Counted from the first letter of the stretch, positions 19,338-63,987 are shown. The stretch is DNA of 64,000 nucleotides from an uncultured cyanobacterium (GCA_963719515.1 CAVRCJ010000008.1:90911-154910), one strand, 5' to 3'. A program made the numbers and translations. Notes: generated by a model from the letters alone, not told the origin.

Positions 19338-20396
19338 TCATAGGGCTGCAGTGAAGTGGTCCACCAGCTCCGCTGTAGTGACGAGCTTCGTTCGAGGCTG
19401 CCCCTCCTGATACAGATCAGCGGTGCGATCGCCCTCAGCTAAAAGCCGCTCCTGAATTGCCATCAGCCGCCGCGCGGCCTGCTTTTCTCCCCACTGCTCC
19501 AGCATCAGCGCCACGGCGGCCAGCGTCCCCAGCGGGTTGGCGATGCCCTTGCCCGCAATATCAGGGGCGGTGCCGTGGACCGGCTCGTAAAGCCCGAAGC
19601 CCTCGGCGTTGAGGCTGGCCGACCCCAGCAGCCCGATAGAGCCAGCGATCGCGCCTCCAAGGTCACTCAAGATATCGCCAAATAGGTTTCCCGCCAAGAT
19701 CACGTCGAAGGTCTGGGGGCGCATAACGAGCTGCATCGCCAGGTTGTCCACCAGCATTGGCAGTACGGTCACCTCAGGAAAGCCCTGGGCCTCTTCTCGA
19801 ACCAGCCGCGTCCAGGGGATGTGGGGCAGAGCGTTTTCCTTATGGGCGACGGTGAGGTGCTGACGGCGCGACTGGGCATGGCGCAGGGCCACCCTGGCGA
19901 TGCGGCGAATTTCGGCGTCGGCGTAGCGCATGGTGTGGAAGCCATAGCCCCCCTCACCGCTTTTATCGCCTCGCCCCGAGGGGCCAAAGTAAAGGCCACT
20001 CACCAGCTCTCGCACAAACAGCAGGTCTACGCCTTTGAGTAAATTCGGCTTTAGGGGAGAAGTCTGCAGCAGGCTGGGAGACGGGCGCACCGGACGCAGG
20101 TTAGTAAAGAGGTCAAAATGCCGCCGCAGCGCCAGCAGACCGCCCTGGGTCACTGCCCCAAACAGGATGCCGTCTGCCCCCTCGCACAGATGCAGGGTTT
20201 CCTGAGGGAGGGCGACCCCGAACCGCTGCCGCGCCGGTTCGCCAATCCAGCCCCGCTCGACGGTGACCGTAAAGCCCTCGGCAGAGGCGATCGCCGCCAG
20301 CACGGTCAGGCTCCCCTCGACCACCTCCGGGCCGATGCCCTCCCCAGGCAGCGCCGCCAGCCGGTAGCGTCGCGGAGACCGCTCAGGGACGCTCAC
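19338..20396 (-). CDS. Isocitrate/isopropylmalate dehydrogenase family enzyme
   Basis: GEGIGPEV, NLRPV, RELVSGLYFG, HKENAL, NLFGDILSD, EPVHGTAPDIAGKG; GTGA overlap with the PKS stop. Confidence 0.9.
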   Translation of the reverse strand: MSVPERSPRRYRLAALPGEGIGPEVVEGSLTVLAAIASAEGFTVTVERGWIGEPARQRFGVALPQETLHLCEGADGILFGAVTQGGLLALRRHFDLFTNLRPVRPSPSLLQTSPLKPNLLKGVDLLFVRELVSGLYFGPSGRGDKSGEGGYGFHTMRYADAEIRRIARVALRHAQSRRQHLTVAHKENALPHIPWTRLVREEAQGFPEVTVLPMLVDNLAMQLVMRPQTFDVILAGNLFGDILSDLGGAIAGSIGLLGSASLNAEGFGLYEPVHGTAPDIAGKGIANPLGTLAAVALMLEQWGEKQAARRLMAIQERLLAEGDRTADLYQEGQPRTKLVTTAELVDHFTAAL

Positions 20397-26300: not shown

Positions 26301-28393
26301 GGCGCGATCGCCGCCGCCACAGCCTGCGCCGCGGCCCGCACCGCCGCCATCTTGCCCCCCGGCAGCGCCTGCATCAGCCGTCCCCGCGTTGCCACCAGCT
26401 TCAGGGCATCTTCCAGGCTAAATACCCCCGCTACGCAGGCCGCCACGTACTCCCCCACGCTGTGCCCCAAAACCGCAGATGGGCGAATGCCCCAAGAGAG
26501 CCACAGCTGCGCTAGGGCGTACTCCAGGGCAAAGAGAGACGGCTGGGTGTTGAGGGTTTGCTCCAGCTGCTTCTCCGCAGCGGCAGCATGGCTGTCTGGA
26601 TACAGAATCTCCAGCAGCGGCACGGGCAGCAGGTCGGCGCACCGCTGCAGCGCTTTGCGGAAGACCGGCTGGCTATTGTAGAGTTCGCGGCCCATACCGA
26701 CGGACTGGGAGCCCTGGCCCGTGAACAGGAACGCGATAGCGGGCGTTGTCGCGGCTGTCGCGAGAGGGACCTCCTCAGCCGGCCAAGCCTGCAGCTGCTG
26801 CCGCAGAACTGCGGCAGACTCGGCGACAAAAGCCGCCCGGTGGGCAAAGTGCGATCGCCTGCGGGCTGCCGTGGCGCACGCCGCCGCTAGCGCTGTATCG
26901 GGGACGTCTTTGAGCCAGGTTTCGTACCGTTGAATCAGAGCTTTTAGCCCAGTCCGGCTCTTTGCAGAGAGGGGCAGAATCTGGGCTGCAGGCGGCTGAG
27001 AGGGGGGCAATTCGCCTTCGAATGAGCCTCCACCCAGCTCTCGCTCCCCCTTATCCGACTGAGCGCTGGCCAGCACGACGTGGGCGTTCGTGCCCCCAAA
27101 GCCAAAGGAGTTTACCCCAATGTAGGTCTGAGGGCAGGGTAGTGTTTCTTGAGGTAAAGGCTCTAGCCCCGTCTGCACCCTTAGCCCTAGCCGCTCGAAG
27201 TCGATGGCCGGATTGGGCTGGCTGAAGTGCAGGTTGGGGGGAATCTGGCGGTGGTGCAGCATCAGCGCCGCTTTGATTACTCCGGCGACCCCGGCAGCGG
27301 TTTCCGTATGGCCAATGTTGGTCTTCACCGAGCCGATGCGGCAGGGACTGTCGGGCGATCGCCCTTCTGAGAGCACCGCCCCCAGCGCCTGGGCCTCCAC
27401 GGGGTCTCCTATTTTGGTACCGGTGCCGTGGGCCTCTACATAGGCGACCTGGGCCGGGTCCACCCCCGCCCGCCGGTAGGCTTCCCGCAGCACGGCTTCC
27501 TGGGCCTTGGGGTTGGGAGCCGCCATCCCCTGGCTAAATCCGTCTTGGTTGACGGCGCTGCCCTGAATCACCGCATAGACCCGGTCACCATCGGCCACCG
27601 CCTGGGCCAAAGGCTTGAGTACCACCAGCCCCGCCCCCTCGCCGCGCACGTAGCCATCAGCGCTGGCGTCAAAGCTCTTACAGCGCCCGCTGCCCGACAT
27701 AAAGCCACCCTTAGAGAAGCCCATGGTGACGGTGGAGAGCAGCAGCGCGTTCACCCCTCCGGCGATCGCCATATCAGACTCCCCATTCCACAGGCTCTGG
27801 CAGGCCAGATGCAGGGCTACTAGGGACGAGGAGCAAGCGGTGTCAACGGCGAGGCTCGGCCCTTTGAAGTCAAATAAGTAGGAGATACGGTTGGCGGCGA
27901 TGCAGTTGCCGGTGCCCGTGGTGGCGTAAGGCTCGTTCACCGGCTGCTGCCACAGCATGATGGAGTAGTCGTGGGTGCCAATGCCGATAAAGACCCCGGT
28001 TTTTGAGCCTCGCAGGCGATCGGGCACTTCCCCCGCGTCCTCCAGCGCTTCCCAGGTCACCTCTAGCAGCAGCCGCTGCTGCGGGTCCATGGTGGCCGCT
28101 TCTCGAGGGGCGATGCCGAAGAACTGCGGGTCGAACTGGTCGATCTGCTCGAGGAAGCCGCCCCAGCGCGTGTTCATCTTGTTGGGCACCGCGGGGTCTG
28201 GGTCGTAAACCGAATCTACGGCCCAGCGGGAGGGGGGCACCTCGCTTACCCCGTCGACGCCATTGCAGAGCAGCTGCCAAAAAGCGTCGGGCGCGTCAGC
28301 CCCCCCCGGATAGCGACACCCGATACCAGTGATTGCGATGGGTGCGGGTGGTGTGGGCTGTTGCAGGGTCATAGGTGGATAACTTGACGTCAA
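20393..28393 (-). CDS. Type I PKS KS-AT-DH-ER-KR-ACP fused to a PLP alpha-oxoamine synthase (AONS/SPT-like) domain
   Basis: KS DTACSSS; AT GHSVG and SHAFH (malonyl type); DH HCVAGQAIFP; ER LIHAAAGGVG; KR LDD and YAAAN; ACP LGMDSLM; AOS SYNYLGL, SHNS, DEAHS, GTLSKS. Confidence 0.93.
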   Translation of the reverse strand: MTSSYPPMTLQQPTPPAPIAITGIGCRYPGGADAPDAFWQLLCNGVDGVSEVPPSRWAVDSVYDPDPAVPNKMNTRWGGFLEQIDQFDPQFFGIAPREAATMDPQQRLLLEVTWEALEDAGEVPDRLRGSKTGVFIGIGTHDYSIMLWQQPVNEPYATTGTGNCIAANRISYLFDFKGPSLAVDTACSSSLVALHLACQSLWNGESDMAIAGGVNALLLSTVTMGFSKGGFMSGSGRCKSFDASADGYVRGEGAGLVVLKPLAQAVADGDRVYAVIQGSAVNQDGFSQGMAAPNPKAQEAVLREAYRRAGVDPAQVAYVEAHGTGTKIGDPVEAQALGAVLSEGRSPDSPCRIGSVKTNIGHTETAAGVAGVIKAALMLHHRQIPPNLHFSQPNPAIDFERLGLRVQTGLEPLPQETLPCPQTYIGVNSFGFGGTNAHVVLASAQSDKGERELGGGSFEGELPPSQPPAAQILPLSAKSRTGLKALIQRYETWLKDVPDTALAAACATAARRRSHFAHRAAFVAESAAVLRQQLQAWPAEEVPLATAATTPAIAFLFTGQGSQSVGMGRELYNSQPVFRKALQRCADLLPVPLLEILYPDSHAAAAEKQLEQTLNTQPSLFALEYALAQLWLSWGIRPSAVLGHSVGEYVAACVAGVFSLEDALKLVATRGRLMQALPGGKMAAVRAAAQAVAAAIAPFEGVVAIAATNGPENTVISGEPAAFDAAVEVLEAKGLDCRPLRVSHAFHSPLMEPMVGAFREVAESVRYSTPEVPLFSTLTGTLITDEIATPDYWVRHVREPVRFLEAMTALHEQTKTRPCFLELGAKPILLGMGLGCLPQSDAAWLPSLRPELPEDAMMLSSLAKLYERGAMLDWAAVVANCPPVSLPPYPFQRQRYWWAGAKTSGAASPGLSLLSAGHPLLGSRLPLAGTQQQRFQAQLSVQSPRYLADHCVAGQAIFPGAAYLEMAIAAGLQWSSTPLSLRDVTIEQPLRLSEQPTDLQLVLTPDGDAATLQIYSFSEKSFSAESHTRHSAATLSRDAAFNAAPLASLQAALQPYPIDPAAYYQALADQGLHYGPAFRGIQQLWQRGSQALSQICCPQGVEVQGYCLHPVLLDAAFQTIGSVGSNLSGTYLPIGVEALQVHHALGASGWCGVWLGATRGELSGGANGSPPKVLKADLALWDDSGAIAAQVTGLTLRYVSRESLARLLAPTAPWPTTPPLTTVSPTTVSPTTSSPTAPTAPSHADWRYQLLWQLQPNLSSASPTKPPIKAHTWLIFADAPQAGRKSVGAQIGAALEAQGDRCLVVMPGGAQPSEDIYSLDPKAPDAFQQLQARIEPVSAGQPIRLLYLWGLGRSPESPGSLAAQEQSCGSLMRLLQSMAGLFSNYQNDQNDQPLRLWLVTQAAQAVEAPSPLHLSQTTLWGLARTLRQEHPSWGCTSVDLPDLLTPETMALLLADLQHGDGEDEIAYRQDKRFVARLLPCTPPKAAIPDAASFRLGLSSYGVLDNLALVPSQRRSPQAGEVEVQVKASGLNFRDVLNALGLLQTVAEAMGFATAADVPFGGECAGVVTAVGAGVTTLEVGEAVIVAQTMGSLSQFVTTSTDFVIAKPDTLSFAEAATLPTTFLTAYYGLVHLAQLKAGDRVLIHAAAGGVGQAAVQVAHSLGAEVFATASPPKWPVLRAMGVPVMNSRTLDFADELLAATAGKGVDVVLNSLNGEAIAKSLAALASEGRFVEIGKIGIWDAEQMGQVRPDVAYFPFDLLEVSRDNPPLIADILKALMAQFKSGTLSPLPKTVFPIQSAPDAFRYMAQARHVGKVVLMLPAVPPAAPLIRADAAYLVTGGLGSLGLRLAEWLAEQGARHLTLLGRRGSRTGPSGPSPSEDAQQTIQRLEGQGVSVQILQADVADLSALKAAIAPCLAAVAPPLKGVFHLAGTLDDGLLVNQSWERMAAVMAPKVAGAWNLHQLTQAVDLDHFVCFSSMAALVGSPGQGSYAAANAFLDAIAHHRASLGLPALSLDWGPWAEVGMAARLGEQQQRRFAAQGLTAIPVETGLALLEDAMGQGQPQIGILPVDRTVASSPLSGSTSLLKGLKPIRPDSPGATEFLNQLIHSSDRVALLATHLQAQLAKVMGFSAPNQIDPNERFGDLGMDSLMAVEFSNRLQKSLGRPVPQTQAFDYPTVNALAAHLATTLDLPAAPLPSAPTPSASEPLASEPLASEPRPTAPPTPQPQPKTPPPANGSSAHPTNQGTNGAAPKSPLQPAPSYTPPPAHYQFHQTPEYLGLRQDLDRLSLLGNPFFTVHEGTARDTTQVQGRSLISYASYNYLGLSGDPRVNAAAQAAIAQYGTSVSASRVVSGERPVHLALEQAIAQFLGTESSIAYIGGHATNVTTIGHLFQEKDLILYDALSHNSIREGCNLSGATAIEFPHNDWQALDQLLHEHRRHYEKVLVAIEGVYSTDGDLSPLPDMVRVKAKHHAFLLVDEAHSIGVLGARGRGIGEHFGVPPGSVDLWMGTLSKSFASCGGYIAGCSALVEYLKYTAPGFIFSVGMSPANAAAALTALAVLQAEPERVAQVQANSQLFLSLAQSHGLNTGASQDSPVVPIIVGEPRKAVQLSHILFQQGINVQPMVYPSVPYDAARLRFFISCLHTEAQIRQTLQVLADELLILQAAAL

Positions 28394-40330: not shown

Positions 40331-41398
40331 ATGTATAGCAGCTATTTTTCACTACTAAAGTCAAGTGCAGTATTGTTGGTTGGCGGCTTAGCCATACTAG
40401 GATGCCAATACACTCGTCTGAAAGCTCCCCAGGTATCCTCTTCTGACAATGAGTCTACTGTTGTTGATGAAGCTCCGAATACAGCCGCCACAGTTGAGAC
40501 GACTTCTGTCACTGGAGCAGGCACTCAACTGAGTCTCTGCGGAATGCCGCTCTCTCAGAGAAGTAATGCCTATCCCCTAGAGGTATATCCCCTTTATTTA
40601 GAGTCTTCTAGCCATGAGTGGTCCTGGTCACAAGCAGCAGCTCCAGAGCTGATTGAAGTACGGGAGCTGCTTTGTCCCAATGCCCACATGGGCTATATCC
40701 GGGGAGGACCGGAAGGCTCTGAAAACTATCTAGTTTCTGCAGTTATTCTGGGGTATGTCGCGGGGGAACTACAGGCTAACAAAGCGTTAGAAATGCTAAA
40801 TGCGCAGTTGCCGATACTAAAATCCCAGGAAATTATAGCTGCTACGGTAGGGCCAGCAATCTCCCTCGAAAGTCTACCCTCGCCTCTTGAGGTAGTCGCT
40901 CAGCGGGCCAAGCTCAGTATAGACCAAGCGCAAGCGTTGCTAGAGCCTGACCAATACAGAGAGATAGGACTAACATTTGACGTAATTGTTCCGACATATA
41001 TCCCAGAAGGATATGAAGTTCAGTCAATCGAAGCCGTGACTAGACCTGCTAACGGCTATCTAGCTTTCGCCCCCGAATACTCAATTACATATCAATCAGC
41101 AAACGATTCCTGCTTTCGAATTTACGGCGCAACTGGCCAAGGCGGTGCGGCTGCCGAAGATGTGCAATATGCTACAGCTGACTCTGCTTTACTGGGAGCA
41201 GTGACACTGATTTATATCAATTTTGTTCAAGAGAGAGATGGCTCATTCCTGAGCTTTGAGGGATTTCAACTACCAACTAAATGGGGAGGAAGCCAGCTCT
41301 ATTCCTTTGGCGATGCTGAATGTTCCAAAACGGTCTCTTTAAATGAAGCCGTCAAAATTGTGGAATCCTTTGAATATTTGAATCATCCAGCGTATTAA
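40331..41398 (+). CDS. Putative lipoprotein
   Basis: Lipobox-like AILGC; C-terminal domain VPTYIPEGY...CF...VKIVESFEYL is shared with 45842-46615. Confidence 0.75.
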   Translation: MYSSYFSLLKSSAVLLVGGLAILGCQYTRLKAPQVSSSDNESTVVDEAPNTAATVETTSVTGAGTQLSLCGMPLSQRSNAYPLEVYPLYLESSSHEWSWSQAAAPELIEVRELLCPNAHMGYIRGGPEGSENYLVSAVILGYVAGELQANKALEMLNAQLPILKSQEIIAATVGPAISLESLPSPLEVVAQRAKLSIDQAQALLEPDQYREIGLTFDVIVPTYIPEGYEVQSIEAVTRPANGYLAFAPEYSITYQSANDSCFRIYGATGQGGAAAEDVQYATADSALLGAVTLIYINFVQERDGSFLSFEGFQLPTKWGGSQLYSFGDAECSKTVSLNEAVKIVESFEYLNHPAY

Positions 41399-41428: not shown

Positions 41429-44400
41429 TCAATTCGTATCCCTCATTTGAGCAGGACACAGATCTTCAGCCCCGAGAACGTCATTGCTGGTGAAATAATC
41501 CTGGAGCCAGTCACATCCCTGCTCGATCGATTCCCTTAAAGAGCGAATGTTCCAGAGCTGCACTTCTCCATTCGCTCCCCCAGCCAAAATATGCTTGCCG
41601 TCTAGCGCCGGGCTTATTCCCCAGATGGCTCCTTGGGAATGTAGATACTGAGTAATTTGCCGACCAGTTAAATCCCACAGGCGAACGCTACCATCCATTC
41701 CACCAGTCGCTAAGAGAGAAGTATTGGGAATGAATGCCAGTGCATTGATACCGCTCTGGTAAGTATAGAAATTTAGTGTTTCTCGCCCACTAGTATCCCA
41801 GAGCCGGACGGTACCGCCTTTATCGGCCGAAGCGATCGCCTGACCATCGGGCCCGAAAGCCAAGCCACTAATTTTGCCCTGGTGTCCCTGCCAGGCTTGC
41901 ACCGAGTTGCCGGTAGTATCCCACAGTCGAATCCAACCGTCCCACCCTGCCGTTGCTAATGTCGAGGTATCAGGGCTGAAAGTGACCACACTGACAATGT
42001 CTCCGTGACCTGTCAAAGTGGCAACCTGCTCTCCACCCGCAGTCCATAATCGGGCTTGTTTATCGGCTCCGGCGGTGGCAAAAAATTGTCCATCGGGGCT
42101 AAAAGCGAGACTGCTAGTAAAGGGCCTGTGACCTTCAAATTGTGTAATCCTTTCTCCCGATGGAGTCCAGAGGTTAACAGTCCTGCCATATCCTGCAGTC
42201 GCGATTCGACCGCCATCAGGGCTAAGGGCAACAGTAAAGATATGTCCGGAGGGGTTGGCTGTCCAGGAGTTGAGCAATTGGCCGCTGGCATCCCAAACGG
42301 TTAAGACACCTTCGTTCCCGGCTGCCGCCAACAGCTCGCCATCAGGACTAATGCTGACGGCATTAGCATCGTCAGTCAACCCTGTTAGGCTGAGCGCTCC
42401 TAGTCGCTCTAAGCTCCACAAGCGAGCGGTGCCATCTCGTCCAGTGGTCACCAAATATCGACCATCGGGACTGAAGTTTGCCTGCCAAACCGTGCCGCGA
42501 TGGCCCTGAAAGTGCGCCAATGATTCTCCCTCTAGATTCCATAAGCGGGCGGTGCCATCATCGGAGGCCGTGGTCAACCTAACACCATCTGCGTGAAAAC
42601 TGGCACTGGTTATCAGACCCGTATGACCTTCTAGATTTTGGACTTGTTGGGCAGACAGCGTCCAGATTCTGGCGGTGCGATCTTTTCCAGCAGAGACCAG
42701 ACGCTGACCATTGGGACTAAAACTAACTGCATAAATCGGTTCTCCCCCATGGCCGCTCCAAGCAATTTGCTGCTGGCCTGCTGCATTCCAAATGCGAATG
42801 GTGCCATCCATCCCAGCGGTGGCTAGTCTTTGACTATCAGGACTAAATTGGGCTTGAGATACGCGCCCTTTATGACCAGTAAGCTGTCCTGTTTGCCTGC
42901 CAGAGGTATCCCAGATTAAGACTTCGCCATAGCTATCCGCTGAAACAATGCGTTTGCTATCCGGGCTAAAGCTGACCGTTGCTACTTCGCCAGCGTGCTC
43001 AGAAAAAGTAGCTATCAGTTCGCCAGCACGGCTCCAAAGCTTAGCAGTGCCATCGGTACTTGCCGAGGCGATGTAGACTCCATCGGGGCTGATGCTGACC
43101 GCATTGATGTCCGCCAACGGACCGCCTGCATGAGCTTGAAATTCCTGTACCTGGCTACCTGATAGGTTCCAGATTTGAATCTTCCCGTCGCTGCCGCCTG
43201 TTGTGATGAGCTCACTATCCGGGCTAAAGGCAGCGGCTTTGATGTTTTTCTGCTGAGTGGGGAAGCGGTTTTTTTCATCAATGCCGTTCAAGATCGTCTC
43301 TAACGCCACTATCGGGCTGTAGAAAGGATATTTTCCTAGCGCGGTGTTTGGTGCAACCATACTCTGGCCAGCTTTGGCATTTTGAAGTGCTGCGATAAGA
43401 GCATCAATTTCACTCACGCCGAGTTCGGCTTGCTGAAGCAAACTAATACCGTTCTGTTCGAGTCGGCTTAGGATAAACTGTCGTCTCAAAGCCCAAGCTC
43501 CCAAAAGAGAAATAGCTAGAGCTGTTGGGACAGCAATTGCCAGGAAAACTACCCCCTTGCGGATAATTTTCCTGGCCTTATGGTTAGCTGCGGTCAGTAG
43601 CTGAGTACGTTCTCTCTCAGTCTCTAGCTCAGCTCGACGACGTCTCTGCACCGTTTGCCACTCTTGACTGGCATCGATGAATTGAGTTTCCAGCGGAGTT
43701 AATCCCCCCAAGCGTGCAAAGGCTTTATTTGCGCTCAACTCAATAACGCGATCGAGTTGAGCTCCCTTCAGCAATTCTTCGTTTGCATGGTCACTGTTTT
43801 CGTCTCCATCAGCAACGCTCCTCGCTTTTGCCGCCTCCCACCGCCTCATACTATCCGTTAAAAGAGGTCTGAAGATGATGGCGTCTTTAGCCTCTTCCAT
43901 CCAGTTTTTGAGGACGTCCCAGGAGCTTAAGATAATCTCGTGGGCGACTTCGTAAGTTGCGCTTTGCCGCCTGACATTGCCCCCATCCATGAGAAAGAGA
44001 GATTCTTGGCCAGAGTAGTCATAACTACCAACCACCATTTTTTCATCAACAAACCTTTGCAGCGTATGTTCAAGGGTCGTACCTTGAAATTCTGCGCGGT
44101 AGGCTTTGCGGCTAACAGGTTGAGAAACAGAGTCTGTAATGTGGACCAGGCGCAGAAAAATCTGCCGGGTGGCGTCTCGTTCGGCCTGATTAAGCTGTGT
44201 ATAGATTTGATTAATCCGCAATTGCAAGGCCCCCCGAACTCCCTCCAGTTCTGTATAGATAGAGCGATTCAGAGTACGATCGGCAATGTGAGGCTGACCG
44301 TCTTGACCCAGGGTTCGACATTCTGTTTCCCAAAGAAGGTCTAAGGTGAACTGCAGCAGAGGCAAATACCCACTTTGCCCCTGGACGTCTTTAGTAATCT

Positions 44401-45268
44401 GCTCAACAAGGCCTTCTTCAAAGACTACTCCATGCCTCGCTGCTGGCTGCTCAATGGCTAACCGTAGCTCATCGGGATGCATGTCGGTGACTAGATGAAT
44501 AGTGTTGTTGTTAGCAACCTGGCCCAACTGAGGATACGCACTGAAGTATTCCAGAAATTCAGCCCGCATGGTGAGAATAATGCGCACTGAATCATCCGTG
44601 TGTTGCTGTAGATGTACTAAAGCATCGATAAAACTAGTACGAGTAGATTCATCACAACAGTTGGTAAAGATTTCCTCAAACTGATCGATAAAGAGAAGCC
44701 AACGTTCCTCGCCCTGCTGAAGAGTTTGAATAACAGTAGTAAGTGTTTCTGGGGAAACTGGTCTAGCAGGCTCAACTTGTTCTTCAGTAAATCGATACTC
44801 TTTACCATTGGCGCGCAAGTTGGAATAAAAACTTTCGAAGGGATAACGTCCTGGTGAGAACGAAACGATCTTTAGCTTGCTGATACCCAAGGTCTTTCTT
44901 AACTCTGGAATAAGCCCCGCCTTTACTACTGATGACTTACCACATCCGGACGCCCCAACCACTAACAAGCATTTATTCTGGTTAGTGGCCTCGAAGAGAC
45001 GGGCAATTAAGGCATCACGACCGAAAAAATATTCTCGCTCTGCTTCTGTGAATTGGTACAGTCCTTTGTAGGGAGATGTAGGGTTGAGTTCTCGCTGTGT
45101 AACAACACTAGTCGATTTGTAGGTAATCTGGGTTTGAATTTGTGTGCCAATTTGAGTAGGTGCAAACGTAAAGGCAGCACTATCGCCTTGGATACTGACA
45201 TCACCCAAGGTATTGTCCATTTGTTGAGATGGTAAGTTACCCTGCTCGTCACCATCGCTCGTTGCCAT
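41429..45268 (-). CDS. nSTAND1-type NTPase + TM segment + 14 WD40 repeats (NLR-like receptor)
   Basis: SPYKGL..F, FFGR, Walker A GASGCGKSS, Walker B FIDQFEE, LPLLQFTL..LW, EVAHE; 14 WD repeats counted. ATG 45268 overlaps the upstream stop (TAATG). Confidence 0.92.
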   Translation of the reverse strand: MATSDGDEQGNLPSQQMDNTLGDVSIQGDSAAFTFAPTQIGTQIQTQITYKSTSVVTQRELNPTSPYKGLYQFTEAEREYFFGRDALIARLFEATNQNKCLLVVGASGCGKSSVVKAGLIPELRKTLGISKLKIVSFSPGRYPFESFYSNLRANGKEYRFTEEQVEPARPVSPETLTTVIQTLQQGEERWLLFIDQFEEIFTNCCDESTRTSFIDALVHLQQHTDDSVRIILTMRAEFLEYFSAYPQLGQVANNNTIHLVTDMHPDELRLAIEQPAARHGVVFEEGLVEQITKDVQGQSGYLPLLQFTLDLLWETECRTLGQDGQPHIADRTLNRSIYTELEGVRGALQLRINQIYTQLNQAERDATRQIFLRLVHITDSVSQPVSRKAYRAEFQGTTLEHTLQRFVDEKMVVGSYDYSGQESLFLMDGGNVRRQSATYEVAHEIILSSWDVLKNWMEEAKDAIIFRPLLTDSMRRWEAAKARSVADGDENSDHANEELLKGAQLDRVIELSANKAFARLGGLTPLETQFIDASQEWQTVQRRRRAELETERERTQLLTAANHKARKIIRKGVVFLAIAVPTALAISLLGAWALRRQFILSRLEQNGISLLQQAELGVSEIDALIAALQNAKAGQSMVAPNTALGKYPFYSPIVALETILNGIDEKNRFPTQQKNIKAAAFSPDSELITTGGSDGKIQIWNLSGSQVQEFQAHAGGPLADINAVSISPDGVYIASASTDGTAKLWSRAGELIATFSEHAGEVATVSFSPDSKRIVSADSYGEVLIWDTSGRQTGQLTGHKGRVSQAQFSPDSQRLATAGMDGTIRIWNAAGQQQIAWSGHGGEPIYAVSFSPNGQRLVSAGKDRTARIWTLSAQQVQNLEGHTGLITSASFHADGVRLTTASDDGTARLWNLEGESLAHFQGHRGTVWQANFSPDGRYLVTTGRDGTARLWSLERLGALSLTGLTDDANAVSISPDGELLAAAGNEGVLTVWDASGQLLNSWTANPSGHIFTVALSPDGGRIATAGYGRTVNLWTPSGERITQFEGHRPFTSSLAFSPDGQFFATAGADKQARLWTAGGEQVATLTGHGDIVSVVTFSPDTSTLATAGWDGWIRLWDTTGNSVQAWQGHQGKISGLAFGPDGQAIASADKGGTVRLWDTSGRETLNFYTYQSGINALAFIPNTSLLATGGMDGSVRLWDLTGRQITQYLHSQGAIWGISPALDGKHILAGGANGEVQLWNIRSLRESIEQGCDWLQDYFTSNDVLGAEDLCPAQMRDTN

Positions 45269-45786
45269 TACACTGGAATGCTCCATACCTTAGCGACTAT
45301 GGAAGCCACTGCCATCACTGGTCCAGCCAAGTCCTGAACCCCTTGTAATCCCTGCTTTAGCGCTAACACGGTTCGGCCAATCAAGTTTTGGTCAGGATTG
45401 TCTTTTTTGGCTTCATCGGCAAGCTGCTCAACTTGGTTCTCAGCTCCAATTTTGGAAAGCTCGGGCAGAGCTTCGGAAGTGCGAATGGCTTTCTGTAAAG
45501 AGGACAAAGCTTGAAGTAGTTCTCTGTGGCCAGAGGATCCCTGAGCAAAGGTGGTAGAGGTGTTGACGTCTCTCCCGCCCTGCTCCGGCTGAAAGTTAAA
45601 AGTAGAGTTACCACCGCTGAGCTGTACATCGCCAAGGGTATTTGTCATCGACTGTCCCTTTTCAGGTTGATTGACCCAATTTTGACCACTAAGCACAGTG
45701 GTCAAGCGAGCAACAAGTTCATCTTTCTCAGTAGCACTCAGCATCTCAATACTTGAAATAACTTGTTCAACAGTAAGTTTAATCAT
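45268..45786 (-). CDS. Small putative effector: helical N-terminus, polar amyloid-like motif, helical/hydrophobic C-terminal domain
   Basis: Contains QSMTNTLGDVQLSGGNSTFNFQPEQGG, matching the NTPase N-terminus. Confidence 0.75.
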   Translation of the reverse strand: MIKLTVEQVISSIEMLSATEKDELVARLTTVLSGQNWVNQPEKGQSMTNTLGDVQLSGGNSTFNFQPEQGGRDVNTSTTFAQGSSGHRELLQALSSLQKAIRTSEALPELSKIGAENQVEQLADEAKKDNPDQNLIGRTVLALKQGLQGVQDLAGPVMAVASIVAKVWSIPV

Positions 45787-45841: not shown

Positions 45842-46615
45842 TTACGACACTACACCATTGTCATATTGAAGTTTACTTGTTTCGGCTGGATCTAGGTATT
45901 GTAGAGACTCAAGTATTTTAACCATTTCCCCAGCAGAGATTATTTGACTACACAATTCTCGATCCGGCGAACCGAAAGCGTAATCAGAAGATTCAAACTC
46001 GCCTTGTCCACCAAGTGTCGTGATAGAAAACCCTTGATCCCCTGACTGATCAAATCCAATGAGCCCCATATCTATCTCTATACCAAGCTTTTCCACCTTC
46101 ACTTTCTCAATTTCTTCCACTTCTGTTGGACCAGCCCCTGCGCCTTCCGTATCAAGCGCAGATGCACTGACAAAGAAACAGGCATCAGTGCTACTACTTT
46201 TGTAGACGATGTAGTAGTACTCATAGAAGTAGTCTGTGCCTTCCAAAAACGATGATGTTTTGAAGTATTCGACTTCAAAGCCAGGAGGAATATACGAAGG
46301 TACGACAACAGCCTGCAATTTTCGCTTGAACTTCGGGGTTTCAAGTTCAGCATTGAGCAGCTCTTTGGTCTGCTCCGAAGACAACTTAGCCGTCTTTCCC
46401 CTAGCTTCAGCCGAATCTACCGGCAAAGATGTTTTAGATTCTGTATCGCCAATATCTAATGAAGTAGCTTCTGGTGATGCTGTTTCTAGAGGGGGAGGGC
46501 TATTTGTACTTGTGCAGCTCGTTAAGATAGATAGTCCGACACAAGCTATTGTCAGTGCTTTTCCTTTTTGCCAAGACACGCTGCCTAAGCCTCCTTCACG
46601 TATAGTACTTTTCAC
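45842..46615 (-). CDS. Putative lipoprotein, paralogous domain to 40331-41398
   Basis: Lipobox-like ILTSC; VVPSYIPPGF...CF...VKILESLQYL. Confidence 0.75.
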   Translation of the reverse strand: MKSTIREGGLGSVSWQKGKALTIACVGLSILTSCTSTNSPPPLETASPEATSLDIGDTESKTSLPVDSAEARGKTAKLSSEQTKELLNAELETPKFKRKLQAVVVPSYIPPGFEVEYFKTSSFLEGTDYFYEYYYIVYKSSSTDACFFVSASALDTEGAGAGPTEVEEIEKVKVEKLGIEIDMGLIGFDQSGDQGFSITTLGGQGEFESSDYAFGSPDRELCSQIISAGEMVKILESLQYLDPAETSKLQYDNGVVS

Positions 46616-46867: not shown

Positions 46868-47792
46868 CTACTGTTGGGCTATCCCTGTTACGTGGGTAAT
46901 CACCGTCTGTTAGCATGTAAAGCCCAACAGTTTAGAAATGTCGCTGCCAATTTATCAGCACCTAGAGCAATGGACTTGACGCTCGCACAGTTCAGTTTTG
47001 CGCGGCAATAGGTTTTGACCTCAGTACAAGACAAAAAGATTTAAAAGTAAGTGAGGGTGGGGTTTCATCAGAATTACGACACCCATCAGAAACCCCATGA
47101 GCCACGATAGTGAATTGAAGCATGACCTCCAAGAGCAGCTGGGCTGGCTTATGGCTTCATCAGCTCAAGCCTATACTTATCAAAACTCATGGCCGCAAGG
47201 CTAAGGGCATTTTTCGTCTAGGATCTGACCATCTATGAGACATCGTCCCCAATCCCGCTTGCTTAGACGACAACGCGTTTCAGCAATCCTTAGAGGATGT
47301 TTGAGAAAGGGGTAGGGCTGTAAAAAAAGCTCTCCGGGCATAGGCTGGATGTGAAAGCATACCAGCACCCGAAAGAGCGATGAGTAAAGCATATCCCAGC
47401 AACCTTACCCAAGACCAGTACGAGCTCCTAGCCAGTCTTTTGCCCGCTGATAGCGATCGCGGACGCCCCAGAACAACCTGCTTGTGGGCCGTGCTCAACG
47501 CCATCTTCTATGTGCTGTGCGAGGGGTGTACCTGGCGCGGCTTACCGGGGGAGCTTCCCGCTTGGCAAACGGTGTACACCTACTTCCGTCGCTGGAAAAA
47601 GGACGGTACTTGGCTTTTGATGCATGACCGGTTCTACAAGATGAGCCGACTGTGTGCAGGACGCGATGCTAGCCCATCAGAGCTGATTGTTGACAGTCAA
47701 AGTGTGCCGACGGTTACCATGATTAGCCACGAGGTTGGCTATGACGCAGCCAAACGTATCAAAGGACGCAAGCGCCATCTGACAGTCGATAC

Positions 47793-49108
47793 CTTAGTGG
47801 TGCAGGGAAGTCCTGAAAGTATTGGTATACATAAAGTCTCAGCCTAGGACAGGGGTTAACGGTAGGGGTGTTCCATGAGAAGCTTAAGTTCCCCAACTCA
47901 AAGCTAAATCAATGGAAACACCCCTGCTTTATCGTCAGCTGATGGACCAACTACGTCAATGGGTCAACCCAAAAGACGAGCGTCACCTGCAAGGCGTTGC
48001 AGAAGCAGTCGCTGCTATCCTGCAATCTCAAAGCGCCTGTCTGGGGAAATGGGTCACCTACCTGAGCCATCGAAACTGCGAGGCTAGAGCACACATGGAG
48101 CGCCTAAGCTACTTGGTTCACAACCAGCACATCAGCGCTGAGCGCTTCTACGTACCGCTCCTACGCCATGCTCTGCAAGCATTTGACGGCAGCGAGATTA
48201 CCCTAACTTTAGACACCAGCATGCTGTGGGAGCAGTTCTGTTTGGTGGAAGTCTGTCTGGTGTGGGGTGGGCGCTCGTTTGCCTTGGCTCAGGTGGTGCT
48301 AGAGCACAAGAGTGCTAGTGTCGCCTTCAAGGACTACAAACACGTTCTTGAGGCAGCCAAAGCGCTGGTGCCCTCCGGTTGCGGGGTGACGCTATTGGCT
48401 GACCGAGGCTTTGCCCACAGAGAACTGCTGGTCTGGCTCGAGGAGTGCCAATGGCAGTGGGCGGTTCGGGTCAAGTGTGACATGCAGGTCCGCCTTGCTA
48501 CTGGAGCGACTCGTTCGGTGCAATATCTATTCCCCCCAGAGCAGCAAGCTTATCTATTACACAATGTCACTGTCTTAGAGGACATTGAGGCGCACCTCGT
48601 CACAGGCCACCTTCCCAACGCCAGCGAGCCCTGGGCGGTTCTATCAAGCACGCCCCCCTCCCTGCAAACCTTCGCGCTCTACGGCAAGCGCTTTGGCGGC
48701 ATAGAGCCGCACTTCAAAGACTACAAGTCGGCGGCCTTCAATGTTGTCGCTTCCGGTCTAAGGGATGCTCAAGCCCTGACGTGTCTATTCATGCTGTTGG
48801 ACACGGCCTATCTGATTGCGCTAATTGTTGGCATGATCCTTGTTCAGAGCGGTCAACGCTCAAAGCTCGACTGGCATGGCGATAGGGGACTGAGTTTTCT
48901 GCAGCTTGGTCTGAGAAATATAGGACGGTGCTGCTACAGGCGAGTGCTACTGCCAACGCTGATTGCCCTACCACCCAAAAGTCCACCTAAAGCCTGTGCC
49001 TCGAAGCGCAAGCGAGCCGCTTTAGACTGCCAAATTGAGTTCTCAAGGGTGGTCGTCTTCTCATGATGAGTCCGCTTAAGCATCCTTTGAGATTTCTGCA
49101 CCACTAAG
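47793..49108 (+). mobile_element. Complete IS4-family element (1316 bp) with 10-bp target duplication
   Basis: TIR CTTAGTGGTGCAG / CTGCACCACTAAG; TSD CAGTCGATAC at 47783-47792 and 49109-49118. Confidence 0.88.
47912..49066 (+). CDS. DDE transposase (IS4 family)
   Basis: LTLDTS, LLADRGF, Y.KRF..IE..FKDYKS (YREK-like). Confidence 0.88.
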   Translation: METPLLYRQLMDQLRQWVNPKDERHLQGVAEAVAAILQSQSACLGKWVTYLSHRNCEARAHMERLSYLVHNQHISAERFYVPLLRHALQAFDGSEITLTLDTSMLWEQFCLVEVCLVWGGRSFALAQVVLEHKSASVAFKDYKHVLEAAKALVPSGCGVTLLADRGFAHRELLVWLEECQWQWAVRVKCDMQVRLATGATRSVQYLFPPEQQAYLLHNVTVLEDIEAHLVTGHLPNASEPWAVLSSTPPSLQTFALYGKRFGGIEPHFKDYKSAAFNVVASGLRDAQALTCLFMLLDTAYLIALIVGMILVQSGQRSKLDWHGDRGLSFLQLGLRNIGRCCYRRVLLPTLIALPPKSPPKACASKRKRAALDCQIEFSRVVVFS

Positions 49109-49128
49109 CAGTCGATACCCTGGGGCTA

Positions 49129-49600
49129 TAGCAGTCCTGTTTGATTTATGAGGAGGAGCATACATGTGCAGTTTGTGGAAATCGAAGGTGTCCAGCCTGA
49201 AGAACTGCTCAAACAGGGCTTTAAGTGCCGGAAACGATGGACACAACCCAGACATCCGCCTAAGCCACGTCTTGCCTTGAAGCAAAGCATCTTCAATAGG
49301 ATTCTGAGTCGGGTCATTCGGGGCGAACTGAACACAGTGAATCTTCCATTGTTCTTGCGTGAGTCCCGCGTTCACCTGGGCTAGATACTCCTTAAGTTCG
49401 CCAGAGCGATAATAGCTGGCCCCATCCCACAGAATGAGTAGCCGCTGGTGGGGAAACTGAGCTTGCAAAGACTTCAGGTAATCAATAGTACAAGCAGTGT
49501 TGCCCTTCTCGTGCGCTTCGATAAACAACCGCTTGCTCACTAGGTCCACTGCCCCGTAGTAGGTTTGGCGCTCTCGCTCATTGACAACCGGCACTACCGC
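49129..49600 (-). mobile_element. IS630-family transposase, 3' fragment
   Basis: End TAGCAGTCC after a TA site; NERERQTYYGA, LWDGASY, APNDPTQNPIE; 5' part missing. Confidence 0.82.
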
Positions 49601-50244
49601 CCATAAAGCGGCGATCGCTCCACCACTACGAAAAGCAGCTCCGCCACACCAAAACTCAGATCCAAGACCTGATGCGCCTGCAGGCCAGCCAGTCCCCCAC
49701 AAGACATCTACTGGAAAAGCAAACCCAGCTCGACTACCAGCGCCGCTGGCTCCCCTCCCAAACCCAGTCTCTAATGCCCACCCAGCTAGGCAACATCCTC
49801 CACGCCGCCGAACTGCGCCCCGAGGCCAAATACGGCCTTAACGCCATCGTCTGCTGGCCCCACCTGTGGATGCTGCTGCCCGACCACCCCAGAAGCGACC
49901 TGCAAGAGACCAGAGCCAGCCTCAACACCGCCGCCCGCGTTTGGCTTTGGGGTCTGCTGCTCTGGTTCTGGGCATTCTTCGGCCCCTGGACACCCTGGGC
50001 ACTCTTGGCCCTCCCCCTCGGATTCGCCACCATGGTCTTCGCCTATCGTTGGGCGCTATCCACCGCCCGCAGCTACGGCGACCTCCTAGACGCCGCCTTC
50101 GACCTCTACCGAGGCGAACTGTACAAAGCCCTCAGATGGCCCCTGCCAGAAAGCTCAGATACCGAAAAAGCCATGGGCCAGCAGCTCAGCCAATATCTGT
50201 GGCGCGGCCCCGTGCATCCAATTTCTTATCACGACTACGAATAA
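49601..50244 (+). pseudogene. 5'-truncated membrane protein
   Basis: The frame is open from the IS630 junction (IKRRSLHHYEKQL...); PTQLGNILHAAE.RP..KYGL...CWP.LW, YGDLLDAAFDLYR..LY. Confidence 0.65.
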
Positions 50245-50340: not shown

Positions 50341-51765
50341 TTAAGCGGGCTGAATCTCTAGAACTCCCATCATGCCCTGGTCCTCGTGGTCGAGAATGTG
50401 GCAGTGGTACACCGTGCGCCCAGCAAAGTCATCAAATCGGACTCGAATGGTGACACTTTCATAGCCCTTCAGGCCCACGGTATCTTTCCAGGCGCGCGTC
50501 GGTTCAGGGCGGCCATTGCGCTCTAGAACCTGAAAGCGATTGGTGTGCAAGTGAAACGGATGATCGATGCTGGCCTTGTTGATGATGCGCCAATCTTCCA
50601 CATCGTTGAGGCGAACGCGGGTGTTGACGCGGCCCATGGTAAAAGACTGACCATTGATCGTGAAGCCGGTCGATGGAGCGGTAGCATCGAGGCCATGGTC
50701 TAGCAAAAATTCGCGGGTTGCTTGAGGCTCGGGCAGCGGCTCTACCGGAATAAGCTGCTTCGGCAGCGGCAGCGGGTCAGGGCGATCGCCTTCCCCATAC
50801 CGCAGGGTAGCGACCGTGGTTTGGGTCGGCTGCACCACCCCCACCATTTGCTTGGCGGCATCCCCCAATGCTGAGCGGCTCTCAGCCAGACCGCGATCGT
50901 AGGGCAAGCTGATTAGTGGGTATTCTCCTGGCTCCCGCTTCCCTGAAATCAGCACCTCAGCGCGTTCTCCAGGCGAAAGGAGCAGCGTCTCAAGTTCAGT
51001 AGGTTCAGCGATCGCCCCTCGGTCCGTTGCTATTAGATACCAGGGATGGTCCTGGAGCCGAAGCTGGTAGATGCGAGAGGTCGAGGCATTGATCAGTCGC
51101 AGCCGCAACAGGCCGTTGCGTGGCAAATCGAGGGTAGGGTTCTGTTGACCATTGGCCAGGATAAGACTCCCCTCTCGTCCCCACCGCTTGGCCAGTGGAT
51201 GCGGATCTTGGAGCGCTTGCGGCGAATCAAGTACGTCCTGCAGCAGTAGCAGCGCCTCGTCAGCCTGCTGAATTTCAGGAATCTCATCCAACTCCCCTCG
51301 AATGATCAGCGGCCCGGCTAAACCGCCGAAGACCTGCGGGGCGACGTTAAGGTGATAGTGGGGATGATACCAAGCGGTCACGGCGGGGTGGTTGTCTGGT
51401 ATCTGAAACTCGTAGGTGTACTGCTCTCCAGGGGCGACCTCTCGAAACACATCATCGATTTGAGGAGAGATATGGAGGCCGTGGTAGTGGAGGTTGGTGG
51501 CGGTGTCGAGGGCGTTGCTGAGGGTCAAGCGCACTGTATCGCCCCCGCGGGCTTCGAGCAAAGGGCCAGGCAATTGACGGTTGTAGGACAGCAGATTAAC
51601 AGATTTTCCAGATAGAGTTTGCCTGCTGGGCTGAGCTGCAAGCGAAACCTCTAGCAGGCCCTCGGTGCTCGCCACAGAACTAATGACGGGGGTACGAGCA
51701 CACCGAGATATCACCGGCGCACTTGATGCCGCAGCCATGAGCCAGAGAAATTGACGACGTTGCAT
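50341..51765 (-). CDS. Multicopper oxidase (CueO/SufI-like), Tat-exported
   Basis: QRRQFL signal; NLHYHG, WYHPH, HPFHLH, YHCHILDHEDQGMM. Confidence 0.93.
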   Translation of the reverse strand: MQRRQFLWLMAAASSAPVISRCARTPVISSVASTEGLLEVSLAAQPSRQTLSGKSVNLLSYNRQLPGPLLEARGGDTVRLTLSNALDTATNLHYHGLHISPQIDDVFREVAPGEQYTYEFQIPDNHPAVTAWYHPHYHLNVAPQVFGGLAGPLIIRGELDEIPEIQQADEALLLLQDVLDSPQALQDPHPLAKRWGREGSLILANGQQNPTLDLPRNGLLRLRLINASTSRIYQLRLQDHPWYLIATDRGAIAEPTELETLLLSPGERAEVLISGKREPGEYPLISLPYDRGLAESRSALGDAAKQMVGVVQPTQTTVATLRYGEGDRPDPLPLPKQLIPVEPLPEPQATREFLLDHGLDATAPSTGFTINGQSFTMGRVNTRVRLNDVEDWRIINKASIDHPFHLHTNRFQVLERNGRPEPTRAWKDTVGLKGYESVTIRVRFDDFAGRTVYHCHILDHEDQGMMGVLEIQPA

Positions 51766-62838: not shown

Positions 62839-63987
62839 TACCATCTCTCGCGGATAAGCTTTCATTCTGCGTGAGGGTTAGTAAGGTATGGCATGGCAGG
62901 AAGAAAATTGAGACTGTGTCAGCCTGAGGTGGCCGCAGTGGTAGCAGAGCTTTACCGCAAGGAGCAGGATGGGCGGCGGAAAAATCGGCTCTTGGCCGTT
63001 AAGTTGGTGGCTGGAGGAGAGCATACTTCACAACAGATTGCGGATCTGTGCGGCATCGCCCGGCCACATCTTTTCGAGTGGTTGAGGACGCTGCGAGATC
63101 GGGGACTTGAAGGGCTATTGAACTACGGCAAACCCGGGCCAAAAGCCGGGACTCGCAAAGGCCTGAGCGCCGAAATAGAGGCTGAATTTGAAGCCAAATT
63201 GGCGGCTGGTGAGTTCGTTACAGCGGTAGCGGCTCAACGGTGGCTCAAAAAGGCCCACGGGGTGGATCGGCCCTACCAAACGGTGTGGCGATGGTTAAAA
63301 AAAGCCGGAGGAGTGCTGTTGGTGCCGCGACCCAGCCACTCCAAAAAGGACCCCGCGGAGCAAGCCAAGTTCCGTGAAGAGCTTGCGGAAAAACTTCTCG
63401 GCTTGGAACTTCCTGCCGGCAGCCGGGTCAAGCTCTGGATGAGCGACGAAGCCCGCTTTGGCCTACACACAGAAATGCGGCGGCTCTGGGCATTGAAAGG
63501 TCAACGTCCAGTGGTGACTCGACAGATCAAATACCAATGGGACTACCTCTACGGATCGCTCGATCTCACTAGCGGCCAGGCCCACTTCTGCCAATTTCCT
63601 TCGGTCAACCAGCAATGGGATCGGGTCTATCTCGAAAACCTTGCCGCCAGCGACACCGAGGCCATCCACGTCGTGATCCGCGATCAGGCTGGGTTCCATC
63701 TCAAAGACGGTGATGCTCGTCTACCTGATCGAGTTCGCCTGATTAACCTCCCGCCTTACTGCCCAGAATTAAATCCATGTGAGCAGCTCTGGGACCTCAT
63801 CAAAGACGAACTCGGCAACCGAGTCTTTGCAACCATCACCGAACTACGCCGGGCGACTCTGCCGGCTTTGGAACGATATTGGGAGGATCCAGGTGCCGTT
63901 CTCTCCCTTATTGGACGCGACTGGCTGCGCGATCAACTAAACTCTTCGCACAAAACTCAAATGTCAGTTTAATCTAGAGAGATGGTA
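62839..63987 (+). mobile_element. Complete IS630-family element
   Basis: Inverted ends (TCA)TACCATCTCTC / GAGAGATGGTA(TGA), consistent with a TA duplication. Confidence 0.88.
62893..63972 (+). CDS. IS630 transposase
   Basis: HTH region, SDEARFG, DQAGFH, LPPYCPELNPCEQLW. Confidence 0.93.
   Translation: MAGRKLRLCQPEVAAVVAELYRKEQDGRRKNRLLAVKLVAGGEHTSQQIADLCGIARPHLFEWLRTLRDRGLEGLLNYGKPGPKAGTRKGLSAEIEAEFEAKLAAGEFVTAVAAQRWLKKAHGVDRPYQTVWRWLKKAGGVLLVPRPSHSKKDPAEQAKFREELAEKLLGLELPAGSRVKLWMSDEARFGLHTEMRRLWALKGQRPVVTRQIKYQWDYLYGSLDLTSGQAHFCQFPSVNQQWDRVYLENLAASDTEAIHVVIRDQAGFHLKDGDARLPDRVRLINLPPYCPELNPCEQLWDLIKDELGNRVFATITELRRATLPALERYWEDPGAVLSLIGRDWLRDQLNSSHKTQMSV

What the first reader, a model, noticed from the sequence alone, without database searches (positions are those of the whole stretch)
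45146..45654. Matched amyloid-like motif in a small protein and the adjacent STAND-WD40 receptor
Seen: QSMTNTLGDVQLSGGNSTFNFQPEQGG (45654-45574) aligns without gaps to QQMDNTLGDVSIQGDSAAFTFAPTQIG at the NTPase N-terminus (45226-45146), 14 of 27 identical. The motif is N/Q/G/S/T-rich with alternating hydrophobic residues. The genes are coupled by TAATG and the receptor has no enzymatic effector domain. Known: fungal NWD2/HET-S and bacterial BASS systems signal by amyloid templating between an NLR N-terminal motif and a neighbouring effector. Inference: a cyanobacterial amyloid-signalling cell-death or defence pair. It is unusual in that the effector motif is central, followed by a helical hydrophobic-ended domain, and the receptor has a TM segment before its propellers.
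Basis: partly seen in the sequence, partly recalled or inferred. Interest (0 to 1): 0.82.

Follow-up and report, generated by a model that had tools for sequence, protein, structure and literature searches.

The report
NLR pair with internal amyloid-type motif
A cyanobacterial immune-receptor-like ATPase and the small protein encoded just before it carry the same short peptide, which changes in step in both partners across dozens of genomes; it likely passes a cell-death or defence signal by amyloid templating, in a layout (peptide in the middle, helical bundle behind it) that differs from the described bacterial systems.

Summary
In detail: 14 of 27 residues are identical, far above shuffles. 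The small gene (172 aa) is a helical hairpin, a disordered motif and a four-helix bundle; the neighbour is nSTAND1-TM-WD40. The pairing recurs: in 56 non-redundant loci each small-protein motif scores higher with its own receptor (mean 65) than with others (37), with no DNA-level homogenisation. The motif has BASS-like composition and shares its tail with a cyanobacterial subgroup of the published BASS set. What differs: the motif sits in front of a constant four-helix domain, which is a distant relative of Pfam TCAD2 and of the tail of PADLOC candidate PDC-M14B. The head before the motif is exchangeable (hairpin, CHAT protease, TRADD-N, Bell-like, none). The same genome holds a second such pair with a different, non-cross-matching motif. 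The receptor's propellers are predicted to lie outside the cytoplasm. Amyloid formation, binding and toxicity are untested; which part is the effector is open. Verdict: new variant of BASS-type signalling.

The parts
45268..45786 (-). Small partner gene, 172 aa: hairpin - motif - four-helix domain
   Evidence: ORF; called as 172 aa; relatives share the start; model
45685..45786 (-). N-terminal helical hairpin (aa 1-34), amphipathic, no family match
   Evidence: helices 6-14 and 18-33; no Pfam or Atlas hit; 48 of 49 hairpin ORFs in the fetched loci also carry the C-terminal domain, the 49th is a split gene
45574..45654 (-). Partner-side motif (aa 45-71; match extends to about aa 84)
   Evidence: pLDDT under 50 for aa 35-82
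45283..45543 (-). C-terminal four-helix domain (aa 82-168), distant relative of TCAD2 and of the PDC-M14B tail; last helix most conserved and most hydrophobic
41429..45268 (-). Receptor gene, 1279 aa: motif - nSTAND1 NTPase - TM - WD40 propellers
45146..45226 (-). Receptor-side motif (aa 15-41)
43826..45073 (-). nSTAND1 NTPase (PF20703, E 7e-103), Walker A at aa 105 and Walker B at aa 193
43487..43552 (-). Single predicted transmembrane helix with the basic cluster on the NTPase side
41530..43258 (-). WD40 repeats (13 stretches pass in PF00400), probably two propellers; boundaries approximate
45842..46615 (-). Upstream lipoprotein-like gene, paralogue of 40331-41398; link to the pair uncertain
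40331..41398 (+). Downstream convergent lipoprotein-like gene of the same family; link to the pair uncertain

Best explanation
The receptor and the small protein carry matching, co-evolving peptides, and the activated receptor likely stacks its peptides into an amyloid-type template that would convert the partner's peptide and would thereby free the hydrophobic last helix of the partner's four-helix domain to damage the membrane, a predicted cell-death or defence output. Shown by calls: the match, the gene coupling, the locus-specific co-variation at protein level, the domain layout, the exchangeable head. Inferred from NWD2/HET-S, BASS and Bab/Agp: ligand-induced oligomerisation, cross-beta templating, cell death. 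Inferred from sequence only: N-in/C-out topology, so that the cue is sensed outside the cytoplasm; and the four-helix domain as a mirror-image Bell-like effector. My odds by step: motifs mediate specific receptor-partner assembly 0.9; the assembly is amyloid-type 0.75; the four-helix domain is itself the toxic part 0.5-0.6.
For: Co-variation: 56 pairs, own receptor mean 65.0 against 36.5 for others; for the 44 pairs found through the small protein alone 64.6 against 38.3, best of 20,000 permutations 47.3; 11 of 13 motif clusters rank their own receptor first, and a control segment from the helical domain shows no excess, 20.3 against 20.0. Fourfold-degenerate sites agree in 85 of 264 own pairs (32%) against 29% in other pairs, so the match is kept as protein. 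Motifs are rich in Q, N, S and poor in L, P, K, as stated for BASS; beta periodicity exceeds helical periodicity in 48 of 56 and 43 of 56 motifs; the region is unfolded in the monomer model. A protein with a HetE-N (Bell-like) head carries this same motif type and domain (P0076). Two pairs in this genome match only within pair: 88 and 66 against 22 and 26. For the domain as effector: head-less genes (motif plus domain only) lie beside matching receptors (L089, L128, L146, L011; also the C1 pair); its last helix is the most conserved and most hydrophobic part, with hydropathy (median 1.26) in the range of three Bell-like N-termini (1.18-1.56); all 10 members of A3 hit the tail of the defence candidate PDC-M14B. 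Topology: 31 of 32 receptors have more K/R on the NTPase side of the TM.
Against: No experiment; no structure of the assembly. The tail reaches KD 1.6 in only 4 of 57 proteins, and its hydrophobicity can be explained by bundle packing alone. The domain is a generic four-helix bundle with no significant Foldseek match and no profile similarity to four Bell-like domains (probability 0.4). Variants with CHAT (GHG and NAC present in 34 of 35), TRADD-N or Bell-like heads already have a candidate effector. PUASM, HELLF and RHIM motifs placed in front of GFP did not form foci in Podospora (PMC9815663), although BASS11-GFP did in E. coli. Six of 25 CHAT-headed genes have no STAND gene directly downstream, and distant module copies end long pentapeptide-repeat proteins mostly without a P-loop neighbour in 1.5-kb flanks. 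A few pairs match weakly (L085, L019, L183).
Confidence: 0.5

Rival explanations
1. Templating is real, but the four-helix domain is a scaffold or cap, and the hairpin-headed protein is an adaptor, amplifier or brake that links the receptor to an effector encoded elsewhere; only CHAT-, TRADD-N- or Bell-headed versions are effectors.
For: The domain is constant while the head is exchanged (CHAT label needs at least 4 changes on the receptor NTPase tree); CHAT dyad intact in 34 of 35; moderate tail hydropathy; TCAD2 is named as an associated domain, not an effector (Pfam name).
Against: No third gene travels with the hairpin-type pairs in the loci read; this genome has no other close carrier of this motif; head-less pairs exist.
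Confidence: 0.25
2. The motifs dock homotypically as a finite beta-sheet or beta-helix ring on the receptor oligomer, like the effector-associated domains of Kaur et al., without self-propagating fibrils.
For: Co-variation shows matched binding, not polymerisation; the motif is flanked by two folded parts; some amyloid motifs fail in front of a folded domain.
Against: Length, composition and disorder fit BASS and not a folded adaptor; the motif tail is shared with published BASS-set sequences; all BASS motifs tested formed fibrils (abstract).
Confidence: 0.14
3. The N-terminal hairpin is the output: a minimal membrane-binding or protein-binding head in the same slot as CHAT and Bell.
For: It occupies the effector slot, is conserved (mean top-residue frequency 0.53) and amphipathic.
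Against: Not hydrophobic (median best KD 0.51); no likeness to Bell-like N-termini (probability 0.8); absent from head-less pairs.
Confidence: 0.07
4. The match is a relic of local duplication or of low-complexity composition, without function.
For: Short Q/N/S/G-rich stretches align easily (mean non-own score 36.5).
Against: Shuffles keeping composition do not reach the score; silent sites are not homogenised; unrelated motif types each match their own neighbour in cyanobacteria, a Bacteroidales MAG and Anaerolineae.
Confidence: 0.03

Closest known systems
Bell/BASS-NLR gene pairs of multicellular bacteria (Dyrka et al., bioRxiv 10.1101/2020.01.06.895854; parts 1-3 of 10 and passages read, figures and supplements not seen)
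   Same: Adjacent, collinear, overlapping genes; about 25-residue Q/N/G-rich beta-prone motif at the NLR N-terminus and in a small helical partner; filamentous cyanobacteria; CHAT as an alternative head; motif tail shared with cyanobacterial members of cluster C02 of the published set.
   Different: Partner motif is internal, followed by a four-helix domain; no Bell domain; receptor is nSTAND1 with a TM helix, whereas the screen used Bell C-termini and NB-ARC/NACHT only.
Bab/Agp of E. coli (Ibarlosa et al., bioRxiv 10.1101/2024.11.07.622273; parts 1 and 3 of 8 read)
   Same: Two-gene pair with a shared motif; small helical-bundle partner; the only tested bacterial case (abortive infection, membrane alteration).
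   Different: [quoted passage not shown] Here the hydrophobic helix is last and the sensor is a membrane STAND.
NWD2/HET-S and other fungal NLR/effector pairs (as described)
   Same: STAND-WD40 receptor with N-terminal motif next to its partner gene; parallel non-cross-seeding pathways in one genome.
   Different: NACHT, soluble; HeLo domain before a C-terminal double repeat.
RHIM of RIPK1/RIPK3 and cRHIM
   Same: Motif in a central position between folded parts; PMC7889193 names RHIM as possibly the only motif able to do this (passage).
   Different: No RHIM-like sequence here; no kinase.
TCAD2 (Pfam PF19971) and PADLOC candidate PDC-M14B
   Same: Distantly related C-terminal helical domain (probability 95.3, E 2e-8; E to 1e-8); 5 of 13 TCAD2 loci show the same motif-before-domain layout with a matching downstream gene.
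   Different: The Pfam model does not hit this protein; I found no paper describing TCAD2 or PDC-M14.

Membership tests
BASS gene pairs (Dyrka 2020) | Matching motif in products of adjacent collinear genes, recurring in at least 5 non-redundant pairs | tested here: met
   56 pairs
BASS gene pairs (Dyrka 2020) | Motif at the N-terminus of an NLR-like STAND with repeat domain | tested here: met
   aa 15-41 of nSTAND1-WD40; NTPase class differs from NB-ARC/NACHT
BASS gene pairs (Dyrka 2020) | Partner motif at the C-terminus | tested here: not met
   about 90-100 residues of four-helix domain follow it in all family members
BASS gene pairs (Dyrka 2020) | Bell domain with N-terminal hydrophobic helix (or hydrolase, TIR, CHAT, cyclase) | tested here: not met
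   no similarity of hairpin or C-terminal domain to four Bell-like sequences (small profile); met only by CHAT- and HetE-N-headed relatives
BASS gene pairs (Dyrka 2020) | About 25 aa, rich in Q/N/G/V/I, poor in K/P/L, beta-prone | tested here: met
   (G clearly enriched only on the partner side; V near background)
BASS gene pairs (Dyrka 2020) | Fibril and prion formation | not testable with these tools
   needs ThT, EM, diffraction, seeding
BASS2 motif family | Match to the BASS2 profile | tested here: inconclusive
   profile not available; two of six substrings hit cyanobacterial Bell-side sequences, one labelled C02; six substrings of other subtypes: four absent, one only in negatives, one in C09/Ccya03; stand-in L007 tail scores 41 against our receptor motif (2 of 1,000 shuffles) and 37 against the partner motif (17 of 1,000). 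C02 = BASS2 is my inference from counts
nSTAND1 NTPases (PF20703) | Pfam score over cut-off, Walker A and B | tested here: met
   345.6 bits against 27.1; motifs at aa 105 and 193
TCAD2 (PF19971) | Pfam score over cut-off | tested here: not met
   no hit; related only at profile level (reversed control 11.4)
HeLo/MLKL/Bell membrane-targeting folds | Structural match | tested here: inconclusive
   generic four-helix hits only, best Z 11.0, rmsd 1.8, 80 aligned; none at E 0.001
Avs and other catalogued defence systems | PADLOC/NCBIfam model over cut-off | tested here: not met
   only partial hits to PDC-M14B and repeat regions

The most novel reading that the evidence does not exclude
A widespread, undescribed mirror-image branch of bacterial amyloid signalling: a TCAD2-like four-helix domain placed behind interchangeable BASS-type motifs is a membrane-targeting death domain released at its C-terminus, driven by transmembrane STAND receptors that sense outside the cytoplasm, with several insulated pairs per genome, in cyanobacteria, Chloroflexota and Bacteroidota.
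Probability: 0.35. Interest if true: 0.88.

Novelty: new variant of a known kind. Interest (0 to 1): 0.7.

Why it matters
A review names central-position motifs outside RHIM, and the bias of screens towards C-terminal motifs, as open points (PMC7889193). This family gives dozens of natural matched pairs with an internal motif, two non-matching pairs in one genome as a built-in specificity control, and a first functional context for TCAD2-like domains. If the topology holds, it would be an NLR-like receptor relaying a signal across a membrane into an amyloid switch.

Tried and rejected
Pfam, NCBIfam and Atlas scans of the small protein and its hairpin gave no family; the Cupin_6 hit is below cut-off and rejected. 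PDB sequence search gave nothing under E 0.02; the weak L7/L12 N-terminus likeness (E 0.2) was not followed. No HeLo, MLKL or Bell chain was among the listed fold hits; this does not exclude them. A complex prediction of the two motifs was not available, nothing was folded. No RNA holder was listed. Promoter and terminator scan: no more than chance; no tRNA in the window. The flanking lipoprotein family as a fixed third component: rejected for now, since it flanks only this locus and L001 among the loci fetched to that point and 1 of 29 other copies has WD40 within 1.5 kb. Recent duplication or gene conversion: rejected. A tree of the helical domain was not obtained, the script ended after the NTPase tree. 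L171 was dropped from the 57 pairs because its linker was mis-cut; cluster counts still include it. Weak motif hit at 18374-19231 is a PagL-like protein, chance. Literature searches without a description of this layout; the journal version of Dyrka 2020 and bioRxiv supplements were not seen and could list such pairs.

Full report
Observation. The two peptides are present as described and align without gaps at 14 of 27 identities. Shuffling one motif 20,000 times gave at most 9 identities; the best ungapped segment between the small protein and the first 70 receptor residues scores 88 against a maximum of 50 in 1,000 shuffles. At DNA level the motifs agree at 42 of 81 bases and at 9 of 27 third positions. 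The genes are coupled by TAATG.

Anatomy. The small protein is 172 aa from ATG 45786. The model (18-row alignment, mean pLDDT 72.6, pTM 0.48) shows a helical hairpin (6-14, 18-33), a low-confidence stretch 35-82 that holds the motif, and four helices 82-168. No Pfam or NCBIfam family fits. The receptor is nSTAND1 (E 7e-103) plus 13 WD40 stretches with intact Walker motifs and one hydrophobic segment at aa 573-594. The locus has 45-47% GC at 44-47 kb against 52-66% at 30-40 kb and IS transposases follow from 47380.

Recurrence. Loci were collected with the small protein, the receptor N-terminal 291 aa and two alignments. Of 110 hits to a profile of the helical domain, 102 scored 55 bits or more, 93 had an intact linker and 71 remained at 90% identity. 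Hairpin-headed: 36 of 39 have a P-loop gene directly downstream; of the other three, L020 has its matching receptor upstream, L084 has the same linker and a WD40 gene upstream, and L177 ends 47 bases later. CHAT-headed: 17 of 25, six other, two short flanks. Unclassified or head-less: 4 of 7. Twelve of the 36 hairpin pairs (including this locus) came from the receptor query or the own genome; the rest were found through the small protein alone. The family was found in 33 of 401 genomes of the phylum at E 0.001, most of them distant hits; named records are mainly filamentous cyanobacteria, plus one Bacteroidales MAG.

Co-variation. After dropping L171 (mis-cut linker), 56 partner motifs score a mean of 65.0 with their own receptor and 36.5 with the others; the 44 pairs not found through the receptor give 64.6 and 38.3, and the best of 20,000 permutations is 47.3. 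Because kin are not independent I also grouped the 57 pairs into 13 motif clusters: 11 rank their own receptor first and no permutation reached the observed mean. 51 of 57 pairs beat all 200 shuffles; weak ones are L085, L019, L183 and L171. A segment of the helical domain used as control shows no excess (20.3 against 20.0). Fourfold sites agree at 32% in own pairs and 29% in other pairs, so selection on the protein, not copying of DNA, keeps the match.

Motif type. Aligned motifs hold Q 12.9/15.6%, N 13.3/11.4%, L 2.3/2.6%, P 2.5/1.5% (partner/receptor) against 5.3, 3.0, 11.1 and 5.4% in long ORFs of the genome, the bias stated for BASS. Beta periodicity beats helical periodicity in 48 of 56 and 43 of 56 motifs. 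The BASS sequence set in the supplement of PMC8086366 (file cut; parts 1 and 40 read, two term searches) holds cyanobacterial sequences ending in the same F-x-F-x-P-x-Q tail, one labelled C02, which I take to be BASS2 from the counts. L007 carries a near-identical tail upstream of a related receptor; it scores 41 against our receptor motif (2 of 1,000 shuffles) and 37 against the partner motif (17 of 1,000). Most other subtype substrings were absent from the set. So the motif is BASS2-like by resemblance; membership is inconclusive.

The constant part is motif plus four-helix domain. A profile search found 248 clusters at E 0.001, 50 at 1e-30. Of 65 of them scanned, ten carry CHAT over the cut-off, two TRADD-N (one with CHAT), one HetE-N (Bell-like), one an addiction-antidote HTH and three pentapeptide repeats. 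CHAT heads keep GHG and NAC in 34 of 35. On the receptor NTPase tree (53 rows) the CHAT label needs 5 changes, at least 4 forced by well-supported branches. Head-less genes with no trace of CHAT or hairpin upstream lie beside matching receptors in L089, L128, L146 and L011.

Wider family. The same genome has a second pair on contig C1: a 138-aa protein of motif plus distantly related helices (probability 75.6; 92.2 with profiles) before an nSTAND1-WD40 gene. Scores are 88 and 66 within pairs, 22 and 26 across. Its motif resembles cluster C09 of the published set by eye. It has 146 relatives; of seven loci fetched, L231, L233 and L235 show a matching downstream NTPase, L232 ends at the contig edge, L234 has another neighbour, two are chance hits. 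L235 is a TCAD2 protein. Our domain aligns to TCAD2 proteins at probability 95.3, E 2e-8 over 73 columns, against 11.4 for the reversed alignment. In 5 of 13 TCAD2 loci of Anaerolineae the linker before the domain matches the N-terminus of the next gene beyond all 300 shuffles, with different motifs; three of the five next genes show a P-loop within the flank. All 10 members of alignment A3 hit the C-terminal part of PADLOC candidate PDC-M14B; among six loci examined from that search four again show matched motifs (one is L090 again).

Mechanism. By analogy with NWD2/HET-S and Bab/Agp, ligand binding would oligomerise the STAND domains, bring the N-terminal motifs together as a cross-beta template and convert the partner. 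The TM is general (32 of 38 long receptors) and 31 of 32 follow the positive-inside rule with the NTPase inside, so the propellers are predicted to face the periplasm or thylakoid lumen and the template would form at the membrane. For the output I favour release of the last helix: it is the most conserved and hydrophobic part, the layout mirrors Bab, where four helices hold a hydrophobic first helix, and head-less pairs exist. Against this, the tail is only moderately hydrophobic (4 of 57 reach KD 1.6), the fold is a generic bundle, and enzyme-headed versions would not need a second effector. Some motifs lose foci formation in front of GFP while BASS11-GFP keeps it. None of these steps is shown by experiment.

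Known or new. The principle is known. The BASS screen used Bell C-termini and NB-ARC/NACHT neighbours, so an internal motif beside nSTAND1 was outside its reach; a review calls central motifs a possible RHIM speciality and notes this bias. Nine library searches found no description of this layout or of TCAD2; the library lacks most subscription papers. Papers seen: Dyrka 2020 preprint parts 1-3 of 10 and passages; Ibarlosa preprint parts 1 and 3 of 8; PMC8086366 passages and part of supplement 1; PMC12261475 abstract and outline; passages of PMC9815663, PMC8195603, PMC7159879 (supplement search 101), PMC10907252, PMC12881547, PMC13506858, PMC7889193 and 10.1101/2024.01.29.577857 (126). Earlier notes of this scan describe similar layouts in other genomes; I did not check them and do not count them as support.

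Verdict. A real, co-evolving motif pair; works most likely like BASS/NLR amyloid signalling; not a member of the Bell/BASS class as defined; new variant of a known kind; interest 0.7.

Noticed in passing
L200:4779-8941 (G000:C1:263778-267940, +): Second motif-matched pair in the same genome with a different motif, N-terminal in both partners; 146 relatives of the small protein.
   Followed up: partly
window 45842-46615 (-) and 40331-41398 (+); L001 5083-5940, 10634-11452, 11499-12266: Paralogous lipoprotein-like genes flank the pair here (the only two copies in the genome) and in L001 (three copies); L202 has an array of three beside a WD40 gene.
   Followed up: partly
L162:2329 onward: A CHAT-headed partner is followed by a 707-aa protein without P-loop that begins with the matching motif; by eye a trypsin-like domain and a CHASE2-like region (names recalled, not scanned).
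   Followed up: no
L091-L111, L259 (G000:C11:30806-31192): Long pentapeptide-repeat membrane proteins end in a distant copy of motif plus four-helix domain, mostly without an NTPase neighbour; L252 and L254 have a matching downstream gene.
   Followed up: partly
L239-L251: TCAD2 proteins of Anaerolineae carry beta-prone motifs before the domain that match the next gene in 5 of 13 loci.
   Followed up: partly
L024, L054, L061, L077: Ordinary BASS-type pairs (Bell-like or TIR-like protein with C-terminal motif) beside related nSTAND1 receptors.
   Followed up: no
L127, L130, L141, L160, L175: Partner genes split into two frames or by a stop while the receptor gene follows; decay or assembly error.
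   Followed up: no
L004, L020: L004 has the receptor motif but no partner upstream; in L020 the partner lies downstream of the receptor.
   Followed up: partly
window 20393-28393 (-): 2666-aa polyketide synthase ending in an aminotransferase class I/II domain.
   Followed up: no
window 47380-49702 and 62893-63972: IS transposase genes and fragments; multicopper oxidase at 50341-51765.
   Followed up: no
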